Below, one piece after another: positions 5,916 through 61,380 of a DNA stretch of 64,000 bases. How positions within the stretch are numbered: position 1 is the first letter of the stretch; each line of letters begins with the position of its first letter. The DNA comes from Naegleria gruberi (taxonomy: Eukaryota), in NCBI GenBank assembly GCA_000004985.1, contig GG738921.1; one strand, 5' to 3'. Both the position numbers and the translations under genes were made by a program. The notes below the pieces were generated by a model. That model had not been told where the DNA came from and made no database searches. It saw nothing but the letters and a program-made list of their open reading frames with translations.

Positions 5916-8636
5916 ATGTCGAAAAATCCTTCACAACAACAACAACAACCAGAACACACAATTCAACTCAGTGATAAAGTTGATCAGGTTCTTGAGGAGG
6001 TGCTTCCACAGAGAGATCCTTTCGATTCGAGTTTCTTTGATCCTGTTCATTATATAAATCTTCGTTTCCCTAACGAACAAGCCTTGAATGAAGGTCTTGA
6101 ATCATCCATCATAAAAGTCAAGAAGAAGATTCAACGTGTCGATGAAGATATCCTTGTTGCTGTTCGTAAACAAAGCTCTTCTGGTGTTCAGGCAAGGAGA
6201 GACTTGGAGGAAGCAAGAGAAACCATTCAAAGTTTGTTTAAAAAGATTAACGAAATTAAGTCTAAAGCTGAACAATCCGAACAAATGGTACAAAACATCA
6301 CAAAGGATATTAAATCACTTGACTATGGTAAGAGAAATCTTACTGTTACAATGACTACATTGAAGAGACTTCACATGTTGGTGTCGGCTGTGGATAAGTT
6401 AACACTCTACACACAAAAGAAACAATACAAACAAGTTGCGGAATTATTGGAAGCTGTCAATGAGTTGTTGGCTAATTTTGAAAAGTACAAATCTAGCATT
6501 CCTAAAGTTCAAAATTTATTTATGAGATTTGAAAGTGTTAAAAAGTCACTTCGTGATCAATTGTTCCAAGATTTTAAGAGTTTGGACGCTCACAAAAATT
6601 CAGGTAGAGAAAACGTACAACAACTGTTATCAGAGGCTTGTTTGGCTGTGGATGCTCTTGGAGATTCTATTAGAACTGAACTTATTTCTCAATTTGTTAA
6701 AAATAGAGCATTGCATGTCTATGATATGACATTCAGAGAAGGAAAAGAAGAAAGTAAATTGGAAAGAATTGCAGACAGATACAAATGGCTCATGAAAGTT
6801 TTGAAATCCTATCAAGAACAATTTGGAGATATCTTCCCTAGTTTTTGGTCAGTTCCACAAGAAATTACTGTTGAATTCAGTTTAATGACTAGACAAGCTA
6901 TTGTTCAAATGCTCCAAAGAGGAAACAATGTTTCTGGTAAAACTTTATATACAGTAATCTTGTCAACAATCAAGTTTGAACGTGACATGCAAGAGAGATT
7001 TTATGATCCAGACGAATCTGAAATTTTGGTAGATCTTCAACAACAAAAGAGACAACTTGATCAAGAAGAAAAGCTCTTAAAAGAGGCAGGTCAAAAATTA
7101 CAAGAGGGTAGTCCTGAAGCCAATGACAATCTGAAAAAACAATTCAAGATTATGATCAAACGTAGAGAACTTGAAAAGGTTGAAAATGATATTACTAAAA
7201 CATCAACTCTTGATTCCTTATTGAAAGAGGGTGATGGATCAGCTAGTGGCATTAAAGAAGTTGAAAAGGCAAAGAAGAAACCAAAGAATAAGTATAACTT
7301 TATTGGTTTTATTAGTAGTTGTTTCGAGGAACATATGAGTGTATATATTGAATATGAAGAAGAGTCAATGAGAGAAACTCTTTCAAATATTATCCAAAAA
7401 GAAACTTGGGACATGAACAGCGAATACAGCAGTAGTCAAGATTTGTTCATGTACATTGTGGAATCTATGAAGTCATGCAGTGCTTTATCTAAAAAGAAGA
7501 CCCTCTATGACTTGGTTGAGAAGGTATTCAAAAAGTATCTTGCTGAGTATGCTGGCATTCTTACTAACAAATTACCAAAAATTCAATCTATTGCTTCTTT
7601 AAATTCCAACGCTCCAAATAATGCTGCATCAGGAAATTCTAGTGTTTCGTCACCTGTTGCTGGTGGTTCTGGTGCCTCCTCATTCATTCGTAGTTTGGGT
7701 ATGTCAAATATTTTACCAACAGAAACCTTCTCCGATAAGAAGATTAAGCTTACTGATAGAGAAGAAATGGTTGTATTTTACATTATTAATAGTGCTGACT
7801 ACTGTCAACAAAACATTGAAATGGTACAAGATGAATTGAAAGAAACTCTTCAAGAACCATATTGTGACCAAGTTGACCTTTCTGAAGAACAAGGTCAATT
7901 CTACCATGTTTTGAAGAGTGGTATTGAGGTTCTTGTACATAACTTGATGAATGTCATGGAAAAACAATTTTCTGAAATGATTTCTGTTGCATGGGGTAGT
8001 ATGGATACTGTCGGAGATCAATCTCCTTTCATTTCTGTTATCATGCAAACTCTCAAAGATGCTATACCATTCTTGGCTAAGGCACTTCCTATTACTCACT
8101 TTAAATTCTTCTGTGACAATTTTGTATTGTCATTTATGGCAAACTATATCAACAATATTTACAAGTGTAAGAAGATTTCACTAATGGGAGCTCAACAATT
8201 GTTGGTCAACTCTAGGTCACTTGTAAAATATAGTATTAGAGAATTAATTAATTTGGGTGATAATACAAGATTTGATGAGGATGATTTGGCAAGTTTTGCA
8301 AGGAAAGTTGATGGAAAGGCCCAAAAAATTGAATGTATTTTACGTACCTTATCTGCTCCAAATGATTTGATTGCTGAGACTTATATTAGTCTTGCTCCAA
8401 ACGACCATTCTTTACCTGAACTCACAAAGATTTTGGAATTGAAAGAATTACAAAAGAATGAAAAACAACAAATTCTTGAAGGTTATCAAAAAGAATTAAG
8501 GAAGAGACAAGGTGGAGATGCCAAAGATGCACCTCAAGCTAGTGCTATTGGTACAGCAACAAAGAAAATGGAACAAGCAACAAGTGCTATCATGACTTCA
8601 AGTAAGAGCTTTATCAAAAAGTTTACTAAGGATTAA
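5916..8636 (+). CDS. vps53: VPS53, a GARP-complex subunit. Single exon, 906 aa.
   Basis: The N-terminal region matches the Vps53 N domain: DPVHYINLRFPNEQALNEGLE...VQARRDLEEARETIQSLFKKINEIKSKAEQSEQMVQNITKDIKSLDYGKRNLTVTMTTLKRLHMLV...KKQYKQVAELLEAVNELLANFEKYK. This aligns with human VPS53 DPVEHINAIFP...[39 protein letters not shown]. Confidence 0.9.
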   Translation: MSKNPSQQQQQPEHTIQLSDKVDQVLEEVLPQRDPFDSSFFDPVHYINLRFPNEQALNEGLESSIIKVKKKIQRVDEDILVAVRKQSSSGVQARRDLEEARETIQSLFKKINEIKSKAEQSEQMVQNITKDIKSLDYGKRNLTVTMTTLKRLHMLVSAVDKLTLYTQKKQYKQVAELLEAVNELLANFEKYKSSIPKVQNLFMRFESVKKSLRDQLFQDFKSLDAHKNSGRENVQQLLSEACLAVDALGDSIRTELISQFVKNRALHVYDMTFREGKEESKLERIADRYKWLMKVLKSYQEQFGDIFPSFWSVPQEITVEFSLMTRQAIVQMLQRGNNVSGKTLYTVILSTIKFERDMQERFYDPDESEILVDLQQQKRQLDQEEKLLKEAGQKLQEGSPEANDNLKKQFKIMIKRRELEKVENDITKTSTLDSLLKEGDGSASGIKEVEKAKKKPKNKYNFIGFISSCFEEHMSVYIEYEEESMRETLSNIIQKETWDMNSEYSSSQDLFMYIVESMKSCSALSKKKTLYDLVEKVFKKYLAEYAGILTNKLPKIQSIASLNSNAPNNAASGNSSVSSPVAGGSGASSFIRSLGMSNILPTETFSDKKIKLTDREEMVVFYIINSADYCQQNIEMVQDELKETLQEPYCDQVDLSEEQGQFYHVLKSGIEVLVHNLMNVMEKQFSEMISVAWGSMDTVGDQSPFISVIMQTLKDAIPFLAKALPITHFKFFCDNFVLSFMANYINNIYKCKKISLMGAQQLLVNSRSLVKYSIRELINLGDNTRFDEDDLASFARKVDGKAQKIECILRTLSAPNDLIAETYISLAPNDHSLPELTKILELKELQKNEKQQILEGYQKELRKRQGGDAKDAPQASAIGTATKKMEQATSAIMTSSKSFIKKFTKD

Positions 8637-8667: not shown

Positions 8668-9761
8668 CTATTTGTTTAACCAAGCATGTGGAGGTATTTT
8701 TCCTGATTCACGAGCATTCACATAGAGTTCCCAAGCTTTTTCAGGATTATAGTTGGCCTCTGATAGACAAATAACAGTAAACTCTCTCGTGAGACCAGAT
8801 AAGGATGAAAACTTTTGTATCAGTTCCTCTTCTGGAGAAATGTTATGGTGTTGATGATTCTGGTGGTGAATCGATGGCTGTTGTTGTGGCTGTGGACTGG
8901 AATAATCTGAATCATGATAATTCTTAGATGAATAGATACTGTTAAGGCGTTCTTCTGCCTCTTTGGATGAAAAACTTAGGTTAGAATTGTTATACGAACT
9001 ATTATACGAAATATTCGAATTATAGTATTCCTCTTCTTCCTCTTGTTCCTCTTCATGATATTCAGGTGAAGAATGTGAAACATTTTTGGAACTGCTACTA
9101 CTAGAAGGTTTAGAAGACTTAGCATGTTTTTCCTCCTGCTTTTTCTTGGATTCTCTTTTCACTTCATTTGCAAGATATAGCAATACATAATTCCTCATCT
9201 TGTCAACTTCCTCCCATTCATGACTCTTCTCTGGAATTAATTCCAATAACCTCTGAATACTATCAATATATCGATACGTATCCCTCAAAGTAAAATGATT
9301 TTGATGAGCCCACTTATTTCTACAATTCCTAGCTTCAAATAATAAATTCCTATCCGTATTAGTCAACCATCTATTTCCCGCAGCAAACGCATCATTCCAA
9401 TGTCGTTGTATAACTCCAATAATATTCTGTGTATCCCAAGCACTTGATGCTGATAAATTAACATTAAATCTCGGAGCAGATGAAGATGATCCTCTTCCAA
9501 ATGTTGTAGCACTCATATAATCACCTCCCTGATCTTGATTACTTGCTGCTTTTTCTACAATTTCCTTCCAGCCTTCTCCATACTCTTCGGACAAGGCTGT
9601 TTTCACCAGAGGTTCATAAATTCTATTAAAATACTTTAAACACCTTCCGATAATATCGTGAATCTAAAATGTAACTTCCGTTTTGATCAAAAAGAGTCTT
9701 TAATATTACATCATACCTTTTGTTGATCGAGAGTTTCATCCTTCTTGTCGTGTTTTCCCAT
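8668..9761 (-). CDS. Protein with a HEPN-like Rx4-6H motif and a C-terminal TAP-C (NXF1 C-terminal, UBA-like) domain. Two exons: join(8668..9663, 9717..9761).
   Basis: Exon 1 encodes MGKHDKKDETLDQQK. The intron is 9664-9716 on the minus strand (GTATGA...TTTTAG). Exon 2 is in frame (996 nt). The motif LLFEARNCRNKWAHQNHF (encoded near 9305-9345) fits the HEPN Rx4-6H signature. The C-terminus ELIQKFSSLSGLTREFTVICLSEANYNPEKAWELYVNARESGKIPPHAW matches the TAP-C consensus (...TgMnlewskkCLeennWdlekAlqlF..lkakgkIPpeAF). Confidence 0.7.
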
Positions 9762-9834: not shown

Positions 9835-12125
9835 TCAATAAAAAAAAAATTCTAATACTGTTTCACCATATTCGTTAAGCATTTCCAATTTAAAATCAGA
9901 ATCATTCTTTAACAAATCATCTGCAAAATATAATGCATACTCATCATATTGAGCTACCTCTTTCATGAATGACTTGTCTATTTTGAATGACACATCAATA
10001 TATTCCAATACTAAAACGTTTTGAATGACTGCTTCAATTACAATTTCCTTATCCATCTGTAATGATGAATCAAGAGAAAATAATACGAATCCATCATTTT
10101 GCAATGCAATCTTTACAATTTCTCTATCTTTTTGGAATTTTGGATCAACGTATTCCAATGCTGCTCCATCAATTTCAACCAATTGTAAAACAAAATCTCT
10201 ATCTTTCTTCCAAGATTCGTCTACATATGTCAATGCATGCACATTATTGCCTACTGCTGCTTTGATAATGTCTGGATCATTTTTGAAATCTTCACTCACA
10301 TATTCCAATGCTGTTCCCTTCTGTTTAACTGTTTCTAAAATGAATTTCTTATCATTCCTTATTAATTCATCGGCTTGTTGAATAGATGGTCGAAACTTCT
10401 TAATAACCTCTAATACAAGCTCCTTATCATTTTTATAATAATTTGGAGCTCTTGGTAAGATGGAAGCAGAATATAACTCCTCAATAAAATCATTCTGTGC
10501 AAACTCATTGATTGACTTCACTAGTGTATCTCTTGAAGTTTCGAATATTTCCTCAATGTTTTCAGTGAAATCGTTCTCACAGAAATCTAGATTGGATAGT
10601 GCTATTTGAAGAGCTTCCTCAACATGACTAAATTGTTTCATGATAAATTCTCTATTCCTTATTTTTTTCAATTCAATTCCTAGTTGTTCAATAACTTTTA
10701 AATTATTTTCAATATCATTCTTCAAAGATTCAACACAAGCCTGAAGCGATAATTTAAATCTTTCAACTGTCAATTGAATAATTTGTTCATCATGTTTAAG
10801 AGATGAATCTATTTCGAAATAGGCATTAGCATTCTGTTGAATAGCTGTTTCGATTATTTCTCTATCCTTCTTAAATGTAGCATTATTAACATAGGCAAGA
10901 GACGTTCCATCCTCTCTGACTGCTTCTAATACTATTTCTCTATCTATTTCATTAATATATTTCAATAAATATCCTTTCCTGTTAACAACTTGCATTATGA
11001 ATTGTCTATCCATTCTCAACAATTCATTATTTTCAAATGGATTGCATTTAAAATAAACATCACTAAATGAAAGGCATGCCAATATAATATCTCTATTATG
11101 AGTAAAATTATCATTAATACCTATTGGATATGATTTAAAAAAATCTGATGATAATCCATTTGTCTTGAATATTCTACTCAATATTTCACTTGCATTTGGC
11201 CTCATTTCATAATCGTCATTCAACATGGAAATTAGGATTTTGAAAAATTCAGTCCAACCTTCAATATCATCATCCAAATTAGCTTCCTTAATTATTTGTG
11301 AAATATTATTATTTTCCATGTGAATGATTAAATATTGATATATATCATCTAAATGATGTTGAATATCTAGGGATTCATTTTTTGGAAATATTACATTTAA
11401 TAATGATCTACCTAAACTCCAAATATCACTCCTGAAAGATATTAAACCTTGATTTAGGCATTCAGGTGCAATAAATCCAAAAGTCCCACATATGAAAGAA
11501 GAGGAAGAAGAACTCTCTGATAAATTTGATGGGTTTGAATCAACATCTTGAACTTTTGTAACAGTGACACCAATTCTATCAGAAGGTATTGGACATGCAT
11601 TCTCTCTAACACTTCCCAAATCTCCAATAATTGTCTCTATATGGAGAATATTATCCTCTTTTTTGGTAATTATTGTTTCTTGGAGGAATAAATTGTCTGG
11701 TTTGATATCACAATGAATTAAATTGTTATCATGAAGAGATTTTAGTCCATGACTGGTTTTAATTAGAATTTGAAGTAAATTTCCCAAATAGAGTTTAGGT
11801 TTCAAATTTCTATAATTAGACAAATTAATACCTCTATATTTGGAAATAATAATAGCTTCATTTCCATTCTTTTCAGTGATTTCATAAGTTAATATATTTG
11901 CATTGTGCATTTGTTTAGCTTTCATATTATGTTCAATTTCTCCATAATTATAAATTTAATTTTAACAACATAATGACCATTTAAATTTACATCGGTTCCA
12001 ATATATTTAGATTTGAATACAATAATACCGTCATTTCTTGCAAGTTTTAATGGTTCTTCAATTTGTAGTGCCAAGTGTTGGATGGTGATCTCCGATTTTG
12101 TGTGAATGGTTGAAATTAAACTCAT
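9835..12125 (-). CDS. Atypical protein kinase fused to a C-terminal array of DUF4116-like repeats. The frame is interrupted near 11922-11925.
   Basis: N-terminal ORF (12125..11922) with YVVKIK (beta3 Lys) but no classical Gly loop. Catalytic loop HCDIKPDN (HRD replaced by HCD), IGDLGS (DFG replaced by DLG), and APE (FIAPE). Then at least 8 repeats of the form DxEiVleAVkqnGxaLeYvsxefkkDkeiv, typical of DUF4116. There is a +1 frame change between ...MEKLNII* and MKAKQMHNAN. Confidence 0.65.
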
Positions 12126-12272: not shown

Positions 12273-13367
12273 TTAATTTAAGGTTGTGTATTGTTTCTTA
12301 CGATAAAACATGTAAAGTAATCCAATAATTGAGACAGAGAAACAAATAATCACGAAAAGACCACCTATGGTTGCTCCAACGATAATTCCAATATCTGAAC
12401 TGTCATCCTTTTTTGGATTAAATGGAGAAGGTGATTGACCATTGACAGTAAAATTTTGAGCATTTGAAACAGAGAATTCAGTACATGCAGAATTTCTGTT
12501 CAATTTTCCAAATAAGATATTCTTCAATTTTTGATCATTGCACAAATTGCACTTGTCATTAGAATTGACACATGACTTGACATTTGAATTAATAAGGGAA
12601 TAGTTTGAGAAAATTTCAAATTCACCAATAACTAGGGACTGAGAACCATTACACAAAGGTCCTTCAATAGTTTCAATCATCATTTCAAAATTTCCCAATT
12701 TAAATCTCGAAAGTGTTTTCGTCTCTGAAAATTTAACATAAAATTTGTGTTGCATGTCTTCAGTGACGAACCAATCCTTCTTTTCTACAAATTCATCACA
12801 GAAAGTAGTAGGATATCTTTCACTTTGTTCAAATTCTAATTCAATAAATGAATTCTTCAAGGTTAATTGAGTGCAATTGTTAGTCAATTGAGTTTGATAA
12901 GCATTTTGAGATGTTCCCGCTGTTCTGAAGAATTTTTGCCACTTTGAGCAAGCCATGGCTCTGTTGGACTCATCTGTGGAGGAAAACTTGCCAAAATATT
13001 CATAACATGGAGTAAGTGATGCACTGCCCAATCTAATACTTTCGTCGAAAATAGTATAGCTAACTGAGAACTCAATCACAAGATCTCTTGTATTTCCTTC
13101 ATAATTAAAATCAACAACTTGTACATGTGCATACTGTTCACTGAAAAACATGTGCATTTGATTGAAATTGCTAGGATTGGTCGAGTATTTAAAACCGTTC
13201 ATGGTTGTTGTGAAATTCTTTCCAATTAAAAAATCTCTTGTGATGCTGGTTGGACATTCATCACACAAGATGACATTCAATAGACAACAACAGGATATGA
13301 CCAATAGGATGGACAACAACAGGAAGTGGAGATTGACAGTTCGCATTATTGAATTATTTTTTAACAA
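12273..13367 (-). CDS. Type I transmembrane glycoprotein with an N-terminal signal peptide, a Cys-rich ectodomain, and a single C-terminal TM helix. Lineage-specific.
   Basis: 364 aa ORF. Hydrophobic leader LHFLLLSILLVISCCCLL, many N-x-S/T sites, and a C-terminal hydrophobic stretch IGIIVGATIGGLFVIICFSVSIIGLLYMFY followed by RKKQ. Confidence 0.55.
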   Translation of the reverse strand: MLKNNSIMRTVNLHFLLLSILLVISCCCLLNVILCDECPTSITRDFLIGKNFTTTMNGFKYSTNPSNFNQMHMFFSEQYAHVQVVDFNYEGNTRDLVIEFSVSYTIFDESIRLGSASLTPCYEYFGKFSSTDESNRAMACSKWQKFFRTAGTSQNAYQTQLTNNCTQLTLKNSFIELEFEQSERYPTTFCDEFVEKKDWFVTEDMQHKFYVKFSETKTLSRFKLGNFEMMIETIEGPLCNGSQSLVIGEFEIFSNYSLINSNVKSCVNSNDKCNLCNDQKLKNILFGKLNRNSACTEFSVSNAQNFTVNGQSPSPFNPKKDDSSDIGIIVGATIGGLFVIICFSVSIIGLLYMFYRKKQYTTLN

Positions 13368-13840: not shown

Positions 13841-16716
13841 ATGGCAAACTCCTTTTCTTTCATCTTGTTTGCCATCTTGGTTTTGAATTGGGCCTTGTTA
13901 GCCAATTGTAATTTGACTTTTTCACAACAAACATTCAACACTCTCCTCAACTCAACCCAAACTTCAACTCTATCACTGACAATGTACATGGGAGGTGGAA
14001 CAACCATCAAAAACAGTAACAACAGCACATGTGGAATGTCTGTGGATAATCCATGTACAAACTTTAATCAATTATTATTAACTTTTAATTGGACACTCTT
14101 TAGTCAATTTGAGAATTTCACAAAAGCAACATCGGCAGGTGAAAGAAACGTTCACTTGAAGATACTGATACTTCCAGATGGCAGTATTTTCTGTCCTATC
14201 AATCCAGTTAATTTATCTCCTTCAATGAATTATCATTTAGAATTTACGAAACTAGTCGAATCATCAACAATAACACCCATCTTGACCTGCCTCAACACAC
14301 AAGATGGAAATGGCATTTCCATTCCTNNNNNNNNNNNNNNNNNNNNNNNNNNNNNNNNNNNNNNNNNNNNNNNNNNNNNNNNNNNNNNNNNNNNNNNNNN
14401 NNNNNNNNNNNNNNNNNNNNNNNNNNNNNNNNNNNNNNNNNNNNNNNNNNNNNNNNNNNNNNNNNNNNNNNNNNNNNNNNNNNNNNNNNNNNNNNNNNNN
14501 NNNNNNNNNNNNNNNNNNNNNNNNNNNNNNNNNNNNNNNNNNNNNNNNNNNNNNNNNNNNNNNNNNNNNNNNNNNNNNNNNNNNNNNNNNNNNNNNNNNN
14601 NNNNNNNNNNNNNNNNNNNNNNNNNNNNNNNNNNNNNNNNNNNNNNNNNNNNNNNNNNNNNNNNNNNNNNNNNNNNNNNNNNNNNNNNNNNNNNNNNNNN
14701 NNNNNNNNNNNNNNNNNNNNNNNNNNNNNNNNNNNNNNNNNNNNNNNNNNNNNNNNNNNNNNNNNNNNNNNNNNNNNNNNNNNNNNNNNNNNNNNNNNNN
14801 NNNNNNNNNNNNNNNNNNNNNNNNNNNNNNNNNNNNNNNNNNNNNNNNNNNNNNNNNNNNNNNNNNNNNNNNNNNNNNNNNNNNNNNNNNNNNNNNNNNN
14901 NNNNNNNNNNNNNNNNNNNNNNNNNNNNNNNNNNNNNNNNNNNNNNNNNNNNNNNNNNNNNNNNNNNNNNNNNNNNNNNNNNNNNNNNNNNNNNNNNNNN
15001 NNNNNNNNNNNNNNNNNNNNNNNNNNNNNNNNNNNNNNNNNNNNNNNNNNNNNNNNNNNNNNNNNNNNNNNNNNNNNNNNNNNNNNNNNNNNNNNNNNNN
15101 NNNNNNNNNNNNNNNNNNNNNNNNNNNNNNNNNNNNNNNNNNNNNNNNNNNNNNNNNNNNNNNNNNNNNNNNNNNNNNNNNNNNNNNNNNNNNNNNNNNN
15201 NNNNNNNNNNNNNNNNNNNNNNNNNNNNNNNNNNNNNNNNNNNNNNNNNNNNNNNNNNNNNNNNNNNNNNNNNNNNNNNNNNNNNNNNNNNNNNNNNNNN
15301 NNNNNNNNNNNNNNNNNNNNNNNNNNNNNNNNNNNNNNNNNNNNNNNNNNNNNNNNNNNNNNNNNNNNNNNNNNNNNNNNNNNNNNNNNNNNNNNNNNNN
15401 NNNNNNNNNNNNNNNNNNNNNNNNNNNNNNNNNNNNNNNNNNNNNNNNNNNNNNNNNNNNNNNNNNNNNNNNNNNNNNNNNNNNNNNNNNNNNNNNNNNN
15501 NNNNNNNNNNNNNNNNNNNNTTGGAATAGCATTAGGTTTTGGAATATTCTTTGTGTGGAAAATTGTAAAGAAATTGAGAAAACTGAAAAGTAAGGAGAAG
15601 GCAGAGAAACAAATTGAAGAAAAACTTTTAGACAAGCGACTTATTTTCAATATGAATGACGAGGAGGATGAATATTATGAGGGCTCCACACCAAATATTG
15701 AAAGAAGCAAATCATCTTATGGGAAAGTATCTGAAAAGGAGTTAGTTTCTTCATTGATTGACAGTGAAAAGAAGAAATCAAAACATTCTTTCAGTTTTTC
15801 ATCCTCTTACATTATTCCAATTGAAGACATATCAATTATTAAAAAGATTGGAGAAGGAGGCGCAGCTAATGTATATTATGGTACATGGACCAATATTAAA
15901 GTGGCTATCAAGTCACTCAAGATTGACAGTTTTGATGATGATTTTGAGAATGAAGCAGCCATCCTCAGTTTAATTAGACATCCAAACATTCTGACATTCT
16001 ATGGAGTATGTTTGACTGATAAGAGTCGATATATTGTGACTGAATATATGGAAAATGGCTCTCTAGACAGGTATATATTTTTGAATAAGAACAGAGCATT
16101 GAATATTGACCTATTCAAATCAAATATTGGAATTTTGTGTGGAATTGTGGATGGTATGCAATATTTACACTCTCTTAAACCTTCAATTATTCACAGAGAT
16201 TTGAAATCGAGTAATATATTGTTGGACGAAAGAAATACTCCAAAAGTTTCTGATTTTGGTCTTGTTAAAGTATTGGGAAACAATACAATCAGTCAAATTA
16301 CAAAAGGAATTGGTACAGTGTATTATTTAGCTCCAGAAACATTCATTGCTGAACATCAAATTGAAAATAAGGAAGAGGCAACCAAGTTGGACATTTACAG
16401 TTTTGCAATAATCATGTGGGAATTATTCTTTCGAATGAGTCCTTATCATCATGTGAAAAATCCATTCAAAGTGCCTCAAATGGTTGTCAATGGAGAAAGA
16501 CCTCAAATTCCCTTCAATATTGAAAATGATACGGAAATCAAAGAATGGCTTTCAATTCAAGCATTGGAAATTTCATCGTCTGACAATTCTTTCATTAATG
16601 GTATTAAGAAATACTTCTCACTCATTCTCCAATGTTGGAATCAAAATCCATTACAAAGACCTACATTCCTGACAATTAGAAGAGAATTGGATGAGATTTA
16701 CAATCTAATCGGTTGA
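13841..16716 (+). CDS. Receptor-like TKL-group protein kinase. The gene spans the assembly gap. Domain order: signal peptide, N-glycosylated ectodomain, [gap], TM helix, Ser/Thr/Tyr kinase.
   Basis: 5' ORF MANSFSFILFAILVLNWALLANC... with many NxS/T sites runs into the N run at 14327. Immediately after the gap, the same strand reads LGIALGFGIFFVWKIVKKLRKLK (a TM helix plus basic stop-transfer). Then a complete kinase follows: GEGGAANVYYG, VAIK, HRDLKSSNILL, DFG, APE. It ends at 16716. Confidence 0.65.
14327..15520. other. Assembly gap (1194 N).
   Basis: Run of N. ORFs 14264..15532, 14292..15650 and 14304..15593 in the track are artefacts of translating N. Confidence 1.
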
Positions 16717-60404: not shown

Positions 60405-61380
60405 ATGCCACAACATGTCCATCATCACTCCCTCTCACCTTCAAGACCAGTCGTCGTTATTGATAATGGCTCGGGAATGATTAAGGTAGGATTTTCCTGT
60501 AGTGATTCTCCCAGAGCCATATTTCCAACAATAGTAGGGCATAAAAAAGAGTCATCAGATCAAAAGAAGGAAACAACCAACAATGATCTCAATAGTATCG
60601 GATCATCATTTGTTGGAGAGATGGCAATAGCTCATCGAGAATTATTGGACATAAAAAGTCCCATGGAAAATGGAATAATTTCAAATTTTGATGATATGGA
60701 AAAGATTTGTTATCATCTCTATCCGGAGTTCTTGTCACAGAACCAAGTTAGAATCCAAAGTTGGTGAGAGAAAAAACAACAGAAATATTTTTTGAAAAGT
60801 TTAAGGCCAATCAGTGATGGGACTTTGTTCGAGTGCCAGATCAGATGGTGTTGTTTTGGATGCTGGTTATACGAAATCATATGCTGTTCCAATTCTTGAA
60901 GGAATTGCATTGCCACATGCCATTCAGGTGATGNNNNNNNNNNNNNNNNNNNNNNNNNNNNNNNNNNNNNNNNNNNNNNNNNNTTCACAAAGAGGAGGTT
61001 TGAATTGTCAGATGGAAGCAAAGTGAATTTTGGAGAGGAATTAATGTCATGTCCAGAAGCTCTATTCAACCCACAGTTAATCAAAGAAGGAGAAGGAATT
61101 CACAAGATTCTCGTCAATTCCATTTTCAATTCAAATGCAGAAATCACAAGACAACTCTTTGCCAATATTGTCCTTGTCGGTGTCTCAACAATGTTTGAAG
61201 GTTTTCCCAATCATTGAATTGGCTCCTCTCTCTGTAAAAGTGAAAATCCTTTCATTCCCCGAAAGAAAACTCTTCCTGGTTTGGAGGTTCAATTACGAGC
61301 TCTCTTTCAGAATTCCACAATATGGCCATTCACAAAAAGGAATATGAAGAAGTTGGACCTAGAATTGTAATGTAGAAATG
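60405..61380 (+). pseudogene. Actin-family (actin/Arp-like) gene with multiple frame disruptions and a 50-N gap. A probable pseudogene or badly assembled locus.
   Basis: The N-terminus VVIDNGSGMIKVGFSCSDSPRAIFPTIVG...ENGIISNFDDMEKICYHLY resembles actin [28 protein letters not shown]...EHGIVTNWDDMEKIWHH. Downstream actin-homologous segments lie in successively different frames: REKTTEIFFEKFKA; then SSARSDGVVLDAGYTKSYAVPILEGIALPHAIQVM; then gap 60934..60983; then CPEALFNPQ...NIVLVGVSTMFEGFP; then [20 protein letters not shown]; then [34 protein letters not shown]. That is 4 or more frameshifts plus in-frame stops. Confidence 0.55.
60934..60983. other. Assembly gap (50 N).
   Basis: N run inside the actin-like locus. 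Confidence 1.

What the first reader, a model, noticed from the sequence alone, without database searches (positions are those of the whole stretch)
9835..12125. Atypical kinase (HCD / DLG) fused to DUF4116-like repeat array, with a local frame break
The kinase domain keeps the catalytic Asp and the Mg-binding Asp. It replaces HRD with HCD and DFG with DLG, and it lacks a canonical Gly-rich loop. This suggests a divergent or regulatory kinase. The C-terminal 350 aa are 8 or more tandem repeats of the DUF4116 type (DxE/DxVLeAVkqnGxaLeYv...). That repeat family is otherwise mostly known from kinetoplastids and some other protists. The combination kinase + DUF4116 is uncommon. Between 11922 and 11925 the frame shifts by +1 (MEKLNII* / MKAKQMH). 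So the N-lobe and the rest sit in different frames, which is either a pseudogenising lesion or a sequencing error. The gene sits directly downstream of the HEPN/TAP-C gene on the same strand.
Basis: partly seen in the sequence, partly recalled or inferred. Interest (0 to 1): 0.5.

Follow-up and report, generated by a model that had tools for sequence, protein, structure and literature searches.

The report
Naegleria kinase–DUF4116 gene, broken allele
This is an already-annotated but unstudied Naegleria gruberi gene for a divergent protein kinase with a helical-repeat tail, and its "frame break" is a 91-base deletion in this copy that a second, near-identical copy in the same assembly lacks, so it is an ordinary gene with a probable defective allele.

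Summary
ORF 9835-11925(-) has a Pkinase domain (64 bits) and a strong DUF4116 array (301 bits, 10 Pfam stretches, 13 units of 25 aa). HCD, DLG and the missing Gly-rich loop are all there. The window is Naegleria gruberi. The gene is NAEGRDRAFT_75119 (XP_002669925.1), and its public model starts after the break, so it lacks the N-lobe.

The break is not a 1-nt slip at 11922-11925. A second N. gruberi model (XP_002668265.1, on a 4.9-kb contig) is near-identical. It reads straight through: VVKI, then a 31-aa acidic insert, then IYNYGEIEH. The window has 2 nt (11957-11956) where that contig has 93, a net 91-nt deletion. Three paralogs carry an insert at the same site, so the window copy is the derived one. 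It is probably a defective allele, less probably an assembly fault.

The 67-aa ORF is the kinase N-lobe. The kinase subfamily has four members, all in N. gruberi, all kinase + DUF4116, all without GxGxxG but with the catalytic Lys, Asp, Asn and Asp. DUF4116 also occurs in a bacterial-looking genome and is fused to kinases elsewhere. The kinase lies upstream of the HEPN/TAP-C gene, not downstream, and the adjacency is absent in N. lovaniensis. Low interest.

The parts
11958..12125 (-). Kinase N-lobe segment in frame A, from Met (ATG 12125) to ...HYVVKI. It holds the degenerate nucleotide-binding loop (LARNDGIIVFK, no GxGxxG) and the beta3 Lys (AAA, 11961-11963).
   Evidence: It is 100% identical to residues 303-357 of the second N. 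gruberi model P0002, where it runs on in frame into the rest of the kinase. It is collinear with the N-lobes of paralogs P0003, P0027 and P0044, and YVVK is invariant. It adds 9 bits to the family HMM, and 0 of 500 shuffles reach that score. Pfam Pkinase covers the equivalent part of P0003 and P0027.
11955..11958 (-). Deletion breakpoint and frame break. Two orphan bases (11957-11956) stand where the other contig encodes 31 aa (INNGDYDHDYHDSNNVGGDDDGGEENANDLS). TAA at 11958-11956 closes frame B upstream.
   Evidence: In tblastn, P0002 residues 1-357 end at 11958 in frame -3, and residues 389-522 start at 11955 in frame -2 (133 of 134 identical). Residues 358-388 have no counterpart anywhere in the window. 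93 - 2 = 91 nt = 3x30+1, which gives exactly the -1 shift seen.
11922..11957 (-). Out-of-frame tail of the 67-aa ORF (KFIIMEKLNII plus TGA). It is the alphaC region read in the wrong frame. The same bases in frame B give IYNYGEIEHNM, with the candidate alphaC Glu at 11938-11940.
   Evidence: The family HMM matches frame B from 11955 onwards.
11164..11955 (-). Rest of the kinase catalytic domain in frame B, from alphaC to subdomain XI. It contains HCD (11707-11715), KPDN (11692-11703), GDLG (11614-11625), a Ser-rich activation-segment insert (SESSSSSS, 11497-11520), APE (11461-11469) and EMRP (11197-11208).
   Evidence: Pfam Pkinase aa 5-251, E 1.6e-17. Family HMM E 5e-56. HCDIKPDN and GTFGFIAPE align with HRDVKSIN and GTLGYIDPE of tomato Pto, chain 2qkw_B.
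10717..11097 (-). DUF4116 block 1: five 25-aa units (aa 277-403). The first and last are degenerate.
   Evidence: Pfam DUF4116. Unit boundaries come from an iterated repeat HMM. The AF2 model has pLDDT 81-93 over aa 311-390.
10429..10716 (-). 96-aa non-repeat helical linker between the two repeat blocks (aa 404-499).
   Evidence: The repeat HMM gives only fragmentary, weak matches here. The AF2 model shows long helices at low confidence, block-mean pLDDT about 42-67.
9838..10428 (-). DUF4116 block 2: eight regular 25-aa units (aa 500-696; consensus D[RK]E[IF]VL.AV.. .G.AL.Y[VA]...[FL]K.). The stop codon is at 9835-9837.
   Evidence: The best Pfam stretch is aa 575-623 against profile 1-49 of 49. 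In the AF2 model the 10-residue block means are mostly 92-98 between about aa 520 and 680, lower at both ends. Each unit has three short helices. Foldseek against PDB gives nothing at E <= 1e-3, only generic HEAT/ARM solenoids.

Best explanation
The locus is one Naegleria gruberi protein-coding gene, NAEGRDRAFT_75119. It has an N-terminal, highly divergent Ser/Thr-type eukaryotic protein kinase domain and a C-terminal alpha-solenoid of 13 DUF4116 units of 25 aa each.

**Family.** It is one of four N. gruberi paralogs with this architecture. All four lack the GxGxxG loop. All four keep the beta3 Lys, the catalytic Asp and Asn (HxDIKPxN), the metal-binding Asp (D[LF]G) and (A/P)PE.

**Proposed mechanism (inferred).** The catalytic domain is a non-RD kinase, meaning the Arg of the HRD motif is replaced. 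It would be active, or weakly active, with an unusual nucleotide-binding loop and a long Ser-rich activation segment. The solenoid would be the protein-binding module that recruits substrates or localises the enzyme. This fits DUF4116 arrays being fused to other enzymes elsewhere (other kinases, a subtilase).

**The frame break (shown).** In the copy in this window, 91 nt of the acidic beta3-alphaC loop are missing compared with a near-identical second contig of the same assembly. The missing bases put the N-lobe (12125-11958) and the rest of the gene (11955-9838) in different frames.

**Consequence (inferred).** This copy can only yield a 67-aa peptide or an N-lobe-less protein without the ATP-binding Lys, as in the RefSeq model. 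It is most likely a recent heterozygous loss-of-function allele, with the other haplotype intact. The neighbouring HEPN/TAP-C gene is unrelated to it.
For: - **Identity.** The ORF is 100% identical to XP_002669925.1 / D2W177 of N. gruberi.
- **Domains.** Pkinase scores 64 bits and DUF4116 301 bits.
- **Deletion.** P0002 (XP_002668265.1, 4902-bp contig) matches the window at 13346-11958 and at 11955-11554. The second stretch is 133 of 134 identical. The match covers the upstream gene too. P0002 carries 31 extra in-frame residues exactly at the break.
- **Direction of change.** Paralogs P0003, P0027 and P0044 all have an insert at the same beta3-alphaC site, acidic in P0003 and P0027. The shorter window form is therefore the derived one.
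- **Recency.** The remaining 696 codons have no further stop.
- **Family size.** An exhaustive HMMER scan of 1.84 billion representatives finds only the N. gruberi paralogs at E <= 1e-29. The next hit is at 2e-20.
- **Catalytic residues.** They are conserved across the four paralogs. Pfam Pkinase spans the paralog N-lobes, at profile positions 14-260 and 9-261.
- **Solenoid.** The AF2 block means are mostly above 90 in block 2, with three helices per unit. A published trRosetta model of DUF4116 is also an alpha-solenoid (PMC8078820).
- **DUF4116 fused to other enzymes.**
- **Heterozygosity.** Naegleria is described as mainly a heterozygous diploid (PMC9928731).
Against: - The DNA of the 4.9-kb contig could not be fetched. 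The 91-nt figure therefore rests on a protein model, and the exact breakpoint and any flanking microhomology are unknown.
- No reads or independent assembly could be checked. A mis-assembly or cloning deletion in the main scaffold is not excluded. It is also not excluded that the small contig is a recent duplicate rather than an allele.
- Taken alone, the 67-aa ORF is only weakly similar to the paralog N-lobes (E 1.4-1.5).
- Kinase activity is not shown. Total loss of the Gly-rich loop is common in pseudokinases.
- The kinase part of the AF2 model is low-confidence.
- The binding role of the solenoid is inferred from its fold class and domain combinations only.
Confidence: 0.78

Rival explanations
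1. Assembly or cloning artefact. Both haplotypes of NEG-M carry the intact gene, and the main scaffold lost 91 nt of a low-complexity, GAT/GGT/AAT-rich stretch during cloning or assembly.
For: The missing stretch encodes a low-complexity acidic peptide. The scaffold has gaps nearby, with N runs at 14327-15520 and 60934-60983. No independent read support could be obtained.
Against: A loss of 91 nt is not a base-calling or homopolymer error. The assembler kept a separate 4.9-kb contig that also differs by two substitutions (V->A, P->T), which is what is expected when two real haplotypes fail to merge. Naegleria is described as a heterozygous diploid.
Confidence: 0.18
2. The whole four-member family are pseudokinases. 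Without a Gly-rich loop they do not turn over ATP, and they act only as scaffolds together with the DUF4116 solenoid. The frame break would then matter little for catalysis.
For: None of the four paralogs has a glycine at the canonical GxGxxG positions. Pfam Pkinase alignments of the paralogs start after or within that loop, at profile positions 14 and 9. The domain is very divergent: the best solved relative has E 1e-8.
Against: The residues usually lost in pseudokinases are all conserved in the four paralogs: beta3 Lys, catalytic Asp and Asn, D(L/F)G Asp, and APE. Such conservation across 33-40% identical paralogs argues for selection on catalysis.
Confidence: 0.25
3. The frame is restored in the mRNA or on the ribosome, by a short intron or a programmed -1 frameshift, so this copy still makes a full kinase.
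For: Short introns exist in this window. There is a 53-nt GTATGA...TTTTAG intron in the neighbouring gene. Sixteen GT..AG pairs restore an open frame.
Against: Every frame-restoring GT..AG removes the beta3 strand with its Lys, alone or together with alphaC. The near-identical contig encodes this region as continuous exon. By my reading of the sequence, the region after the frame-B TAA has no X XXY YYZ slippery heptamer (the codons are AAA TTT ATA).
Confidence: 0.02
4. The 67-aa ORF is a separate, unrelated small gene or a chance ORF, and the real gene starts at Met 11925 or 11910, as in the RefSeq model.
For: RefSeq models the gene from MHNANIL. Alone, the ORF has no significant Pfam or paralog match.
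Against: That start gives a kinase domain lacking Pfam positions 1-53, the ATP-binding half. The ORF is collinear with the paralog N-lobes, including invariant YVVK. It is fused in frame in P0002. The shuffle control gives 0 of 500.
Confidence: 0.03
5. The kinase-DUF4116 gene and the HEPN_Swt1/TAP-C gene form a functional or co-transcribed pair.
For: They are on the same strand, with only 73 nt between the kinase stop (9835) and the neighbour's ATG (9761).
Against: Within +-10 kb of the HEPN/TAP-C ortholog in N. lovaniensis, and on an 11-kb contig of another relative, no kinase/DUF4116 homolog is detectable. The kinase subfamily has no detectable ortholog outside N. gruberi. As far as I know, short intergenic spacers are usual in this compact genome.
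Confidence: 0.03

Closest known systems
N. gruberi paralogs NAEGRDRAFT_53795 (XP_002670086.1), NAEGRDRAFT_68631 (XP_002676313.1) and NAEGRDRAFT_62160 (XP_002682207.1)
   Same: They share the architecture: an N-terminal kinase followed by a DUF4116 array. The kinase domains are 33-40% identical. All have invariant YVVK, an insert between beta3 and alphaC, HxDIKPxN, D(L/F)G and no GxGxxG.
   Different: The HxD residue varies (HHD, HRD, HSD against HCD here). Two have DFG rather than DLG. The number of repeats differs (13 Pfam stretches in 53795). The copy in this window has lost the insert and its reading frame.
Canonical eukaryotic protein kinases (Pfam PF00069). The nearest solved relative by sequence is tomato Pto (2qkw_B), followed by PLK1, ULK2, PKR, DAPK3 and CDPKs.
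   Same: The catalytic loop, the P+1/APE region and subdomain XI align. D-x-K-x-x-N and GT..APE are the Ser/Thr-type signatures (textbook Hanks-Hunter motifs, from my own knowledge).
   Different: The best E-value is only 1e-8, and the top hits span several kinase groups, so no group assignment is possible. There is no Gly-rich loop. It is non-RD (HCD). It has DLG, plus long inserts in beta3-alphaC, beta7-beta8 and the activation segment. From memory, HCD occurs in DYRKs and DLG in WNKs. Neither comparison was tested here.
DUF4116 (PF13475) repeat proteins
   Same: The profile match is strong (301 bits). The predicted alpha-solenoid agrees with the published contact-based model (PMC8078820).
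   Different: Here the array is split in two blocks by a 96-aa linker and attached to a kinase. Other members carry a subtilase (P0004), are repeats only (P0006), sit in a bacterial-looking genome (P0009), or have the kinase C-terminal to the repeats (P0013, P0005).
Kinases fused to helical-repeat domains (e.g. LRRK2 ARM/ANK/LRR, ILK ankyrin, HEAT repeats of PIKKs) - a functional analogy only, from my own knowledge
   Same: A catalytic or pseudo-catalytic kinase domain is joined to a solenoid that mediates partner binding. Foldseek gives only weak, generic HEAT/ARM similarities (importin-beta, PR65).
   Different: There is no sequence or specific fold relationship: no PDB match at E <= 1e-3. 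The repeat unit is 25 aa with three short helices, unlike HEAT, ARM or ANK units.

Membership tests
Eukaryotic protein kinase superfamily (Pfam PF00069 Pkinase) | Profile match above the curated gathering score | tested here: met
   64.2 bits against a cut-off of 31.7, E 1.6e-17, profile positions 54-260 of 263. Joining the upstream ORF raises the score slightly, to 67 bits.
Eukaryotic protein kinase superfamily (Pfam PF00069 Pkinase) | Catalytic loop Asp and Asn (HRD...N) and metal-binding Asp (DFG) | tested here: met
   HCDIKPDN is at 11692-11715 and GDLG at 11614-11625. Both are conserved in all four paralogs. HCDIKPDN aligns with HRDVKSIN of Pto.
Eukaryotic protein kinase superfamily (Pfam PF00069 Pkinase) | ATP-anchoring beta3 Lys and alphaC Glu in the same polypeptide as the catalytic loop | tested here: not met
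   The Lys (VVKI, 11961-11963) is in frame A. The Glu candidate (GEIE, 11938-11940) and the catalytic loop are in frame B, and TAA/TGA stops lie between them. The feature is met in the second contig's model P0002 and in the paralogs.
Eukaryotic protein kinase superfamily (Pfam PF00069 Pkinase) | Gly-rich loop GxGxxG | tested here: not met
   The loop reads LARNDGIIVFK here. The paralogs have LKASYHCRVFK, FKKGNNVVVCK and NPKSDTLVCK. Pfam alignments of the paralogs begin at profile positions 14 and 9.
Eukaryotic protein kinase superfamily (Pfam PF00069 Pkinase) | Phosphotransferase activity | not testable with these tools
   This needs a biochemical assay.
DUF4116 repeat family (Pfam PF13475) | Profile match above the gathering score, in tandem copies | tested here: met
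   301.2 bits against a cut-off of 24.9, in 10 stretches. My own repeat HMM resolves 13 units of 25 aa.
DUF4116 repeat family (Pfam PF13475) | All-helical solenoid fold | tested here: met
   In the AF2 model built from a 25-sequence alignment, the block means are mostly above 90 in block 2, with three helices per unit. This agrees with the trRosetta alpha-solenoid. It is a prediction only; no solved homolog exists.
Pseudokinase (operational definition, from my own knowledge: loss of beta3 Lys, catalytic Asp or DFG Asp) | At least one of the three residues is substituted | tested here: not met
   All three are present in the gene family. The window copy is disabled by a frameshift, not by substitution.
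Programmed -1 ribosomal frameshift site | X XXY YYZ slippery heptamer at the frame junction | tested here: not met
   The codons after the frame-B TAA are AAA TTT ATA ATT, with no canonical heptamer (sequence, read by eye). An intact ORF exists in the other contig.
Spliceosomal intron across the break | A GT..AG interval whose removal joins the two frames and keeps the conserved kinase elements | tested here: not met
   Sixteen frame-restoring GT..AG pairs were found. Every one deletes the beta3 strand with its Lys, alone or together with alphaC.
Conserved gene pair with HEPN_Swt1/TAP_C | Adjacency retained in related genomes | tested here: not met
   No kinase/DUF4116 homolog was found within +-10 kb of the ortholog in N. 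lovaniensis (L001) or on contig L002.

The most novel reading that the evidence does not exclude
The four N. gruberi kinase-DUF4116 proteins could be a lineage-restricted kinase family. They would bind nucleotide without any Gly-rich loop, perhaps using the acidic beta3-alphaC insert or the solenoid in cis. NEG-M would be naturally heterozygous for a null allele of one member, which would give a ready-made genetic handle on the function of the still uncharacterised DUF4116 solenoid.
Probability: 0.15. Interest if true: 0.4.

Novelty: new member of a known kind. Interest (0 to 1): 0.2.

Why it matters
The practical value is modest.

1. The RefSeq and UniProt model of NAEGRDRAFT_75119 (691 aa) lacks the kinase N-lobe. 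It should be flagged as a frameshifted allele. The intact form can be reconstructed from XP_002668265.1, which is itself a chimeric model fused to the upstream membrane-protein gene.
2. The gene belongs to a four-member kinase subfamily found only in N. gruberi, all fused to DUF4116. This is one of the few enzyme contexts available for guessing what this widespread but uncharacterised solenoid repeat does.
3. It is an example of a heterozygous disabling indel in the reference strain.

None of this changes current views of kinases or of Naegleria biology.

Tried and rejected
- **DNA of the second contig and the paralog loci.** Exact-product look-ups for P0002, P0001 and P0003, and for both window ORFs, found nothing on record. 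Neither the breakpoint at DNA level nor the paralogs' neighbours could be examined.
- **Simple 1-nt repair.** I first suspected a homopolymer miscall (TTT to TTTT) and built a 763-aa joined protein. The joined forms did not extend the Pfam Pkinase match into the N-lobe. The P0002 sequence then showed that the real difference is a 31-aa segment.
- **Intron and programmed-frameshift explanations.** Both were rejected.
- **Significance of the 67-aa ORF alone.** It is not significant against P0003 (E 1.5) or the family HMM (E 1.4). It only becomes convincing in context.
- **Single-sequence AF2 model.** It was uninformative, with pLDDT 43.6. The alignment-based model resolves only the repeats.
- **Foldseek against PDB.** No significant analog was found.
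- **Viral-contig scan with repeat block 2.** It found no relative. This was single-protein mode, so only close relatives would have been detected.
- **Literature.** No paper mentions the locus tags. DUF4116 occurs in 4 papers, none of them functional. The 2010 genome paper is not held in the library.
- **Profile search with the kinase domain.** It returned only P0002 plus distant generic kinases.
Full report
**Source and context.** The window is AT-rich (about 33% GC) and contains assembly gaps. The 696-aa ORF at 9835-11925(-) is 100% identical to "predicted protein [Naegleria gruberi]" XP_002669925.1 / EFC37181.1 / UniProt D2W177, locus NAEGRDRAFT_75119. The source database already tags that protein with Pkinase and DUF4116. 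The neighbours are:
- Vps53 at 5916-8636(+);
- a HEPN_Swt1 + TAP_C gene at 8668-9761(-);
- a signal-peptide/TM protein at 12273-13367(-).

**Checking the observation.** Pfam gives Pkinase at E 1.6e-17 (64 bits, cut-off 31.7), but only for profile positions 54-260. It gives DUF4116 at E 7e-92 (301 bits) in 10 stretches. The 67-aa ORF at 11922-12125(-) overlaps the long ORF by ATGA. The description is therefore accurate.

An iterated repeat HMM shows that the structural unit is 25 aa, so Pfam's 49-aa model covers two units. There are 13 units in two blocks, aa 277-403 and aa 500-696, separated by a 96-aa non-repeat helical linker.

**What the frame break is.** I first tried a one-base repair. 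It did not extend the Pkinase match into the N-lobe. The database search then returned P0002 (XP_002668265.1, "partial"), which lies on a 4902-bp N. gruberi contig.

P0002 is a chimeric gene model. It runs from the upstream membrane protein into the kinase and reads ...HYVVKI-INNGDYDHDYHDSNNVGGDDDGGEENANDLS-IYNYGEIEHNMKAKQMH... without interruption. tblastn against the window gives three results:
- P0002 residues 1-357 map to 13346-11958 in frame -3. The match is identical apart from one V->A change and segments that the model spliced out.
- Residues 389-522 map to 11955-11554 in frame -2, with 133 of 134 identical.
- Residues 358-388 map nowhere in the window.

The window has 2 nt (11957-11956) where the other contig has 93. 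That is a net loss of 91 nt (3x30+1), which produces exactly the -1 frame displacement observed.

The paralogs carry an insert at the same place, between beta3 (YVVK) and alphaC (GE/GD), and it is acidic in P0003 and P0027. The long form is therefore ancestral, and the window carries a deletion. No other stop interrupts the remaining 696 codons, so the lesion is recent.

Sixteen GT..AG intervals could restore the frame, but each removes the beta3 strand with its Lys, alone or together with alphaC. There is no canonical slippery heptamer. Splicing and programmed frameshifting are therefore rejected.

The small contig is near-identical over two adjacent genes, with a few substitutions. That is what an unmerged second haplotype looks like, and Naegleria is described as mainly a heterozygous diploid (PMC9928731). 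I could not obtain the contig's DNA or any reads. An artefactual deletion in the main scaffold therefore remains possible, at roughly one chance in five.

**Is the 67-aa ORF part of the gene?** Alone it is not significantly similar to anything. Four lines of evidence show that it is the N-lobe:
- It is contiguous with the kinase in P0002.
- It aligns collinearly with the N-lobes of the three paralogs, and YVVK is invariant.
- It adds about 9 bits to an HMM built only from the paralogs, and 0 of 500 shuffles of these 58 residues reach the real score.
- Pfam Pkinase covers the equivalent region in P0003 (profile 14-260) and P0027 (profile 9-261).

**The kinase.** An exhaustive HMMER search of 1.84 billion cluster representatives found only N. 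gruberi proteins at E <= 1e-29: the gene itself, NAEGRDRAFT_68631 and NAEGRDRAFT_53795. NAEGRDRAFT_62160 follows at 4e-13, and the next unrelated kinases start at 2e-20. All four are kinase + DUF4116.

Across the four proteins:
- The HxD residue varies (HCD, HHD, HRD, HSD).
- DFG alternates with DLG.
- The Lys, Asp, Asn and Asp, and (A/P)PE, are invariant.
- No member has glycines at the GxGxxG positions.

The closest solved kinases are only at E 1e-8 to 1e-5 (Pto, PLK1, ULK2, PKR, DAPK3, CDPKs), so the domain cannot be placed in a standard group. D-x-K-x-x-N and GT..APE are Ser/Thr-type signatures (textbook knowledge).

I infer an active or weakly active non-RD kinase with an unusual nucleotide-binding loop. 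The pseudokinase alternative gets about 25%.

**The repeat array.** An AlphaFold2 model built with a 25-sequence alignment is confident for the repeats. The 10-residue block means are 81-93 over aa 311-390 in block 1 and mostly 92-98 between about aa 520 and 680 in block 2. The model is poor for the truncated kinase. Each 25-aa unit is helix(10)-helix(6)-helix(4), stacked into a solenoid. This agrees with the only published statement on the fold, a trRosetta alpha-solenoid (PMC8078820). Foldseek against PDB gives nothing at E <= 1e-3, only generic HEAT/ARM solenoids.

DUF4116 is not protist-specific. P0009 lies among PTS, ROK and ABC-transporter genes on a 3.1-Mb contig, and the Pfam representative used in PMC8078820 is UniProt R7MCC4. 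DUF4116 is fused to several other enzymes:
- a subtilase, P0004;
- a different type of kinase in N. lovaniensis, with the repeats N-terminal (P0013);
- two tandem kinase genes on a metagenome contig.

The combination is thus recurrent. The array behaves like a portable interaction or targeting module, which is the basis for the proposed mechanism. That mechanism is inferred, not shown.

**The neighbour.** On the coding strand the kinase is 5' of the HEPN/TAP-C gene, with a 73-nt spacer. That gene has a 45-nt first exon and a 53-nt intron, read and consistent with the N. lovaniensis model. Its orthologs in N. lovaniensis (39% identity) and on another Naegleria-like contig have no kinase/DUF4116, Vps53 or TM-protein homolog within the fetched flanks. 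A Logan contig from run ERR1078381 confirms the HEPN-Vps53 arrangement in N. gruberi but stops 103 nt short of the kinase side. The adjacency is therefore incidental.

**Verdict.** This is a real gene, correctly read by the first stage in its main features. It is already present in public annotation, though with a truncated model and no literature. The "frame break" is explained as a 91-nt deletion specific to this copy. The family is small, lineage-restricted and uncharacterised. It is mildly interesting for the G-loop-less kinase and as an enzyme context for DUF4116, but otherwise ordinary.

Noticed in passing
window 8668-9761 (-): The HEPN_Swt1 + TAP_C gene appears to have a 45-nt first exon (9761-9717, MGKHDKKDETLDQQK), a 53-nt intron (9716-9664, GTATGA...TTTTAG) and a second exon at 9663-8668. 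Orthologs at 39% identity exist in N. lovaniensis (P0178) and on an ENA contig (P0179). This pairs an RNA-surveillance-type HEPN domain with the TAP_C domain, which I recall binds nucleoporins. It may deserve its own look.
   Followed up: partly
window 5916-8636 (+) and 8668 (-): Vps53 (Pfam Vps53_N, E 2e-93) converges on the HEPN/TAP-C gene with only 31 nt between the two stop codons. The same arrangement is seen on an independent Logan contig (L004, run ERR1078381), whose HEPN/TAP-C product is 99% identical to the window's.
   Followed up: partly
window 12273-13367 (-) and protein P0002: The RefSeq model XP_002668265.1 on the small contig is chimeric. It splices the upstream signal-peptide/Cys-rich/TM protein gene onto the kinase N-terminus. 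It also skips 50 aa that are a continuous ORF in the window (about 12986-12837). This is probably a gene-prediction artefact on a short contig.
   Followed up: partly
window 14327-15520 and 60934-60983: There are runs of N (1194 and 50 bases), which are scaffold gaps. The first interrupts an ORF that starts at 13841(+).
   Followed up: no
L006 6081-11078 (also L007): A JGI metagenome contig has two tandem genes (628 and 1025 aa), each with DUF4116 repeats followed by a C-terminal kinase. They lie next to a 1762-aa RRM/DEAD-helicase/IBR protein. This is an independent kinase-DUF4116 fusion with the opposite domain order. The source organism is unknown.
   Followed up: no
L005 4001-5275: A 424-aa DUF4116 protein (P0009) sits on a 3.1-Mb contig among PTS-HPr, ROK, HAD, ABC-transporter and peroxiredoxin genes, so the context looks bacterial. 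DUF4116 repeats also give weak matches to the Pfam SpoVR_C model (PF24755).
   Followed up: no
window 9838-11097 (-): Pfam's 49-residue DUF4116 model corresponds to two structural units of 25 aa. In the AF2 model each unit is three short helices (about 10, 6 and 4 residues).
   Followed up: partly
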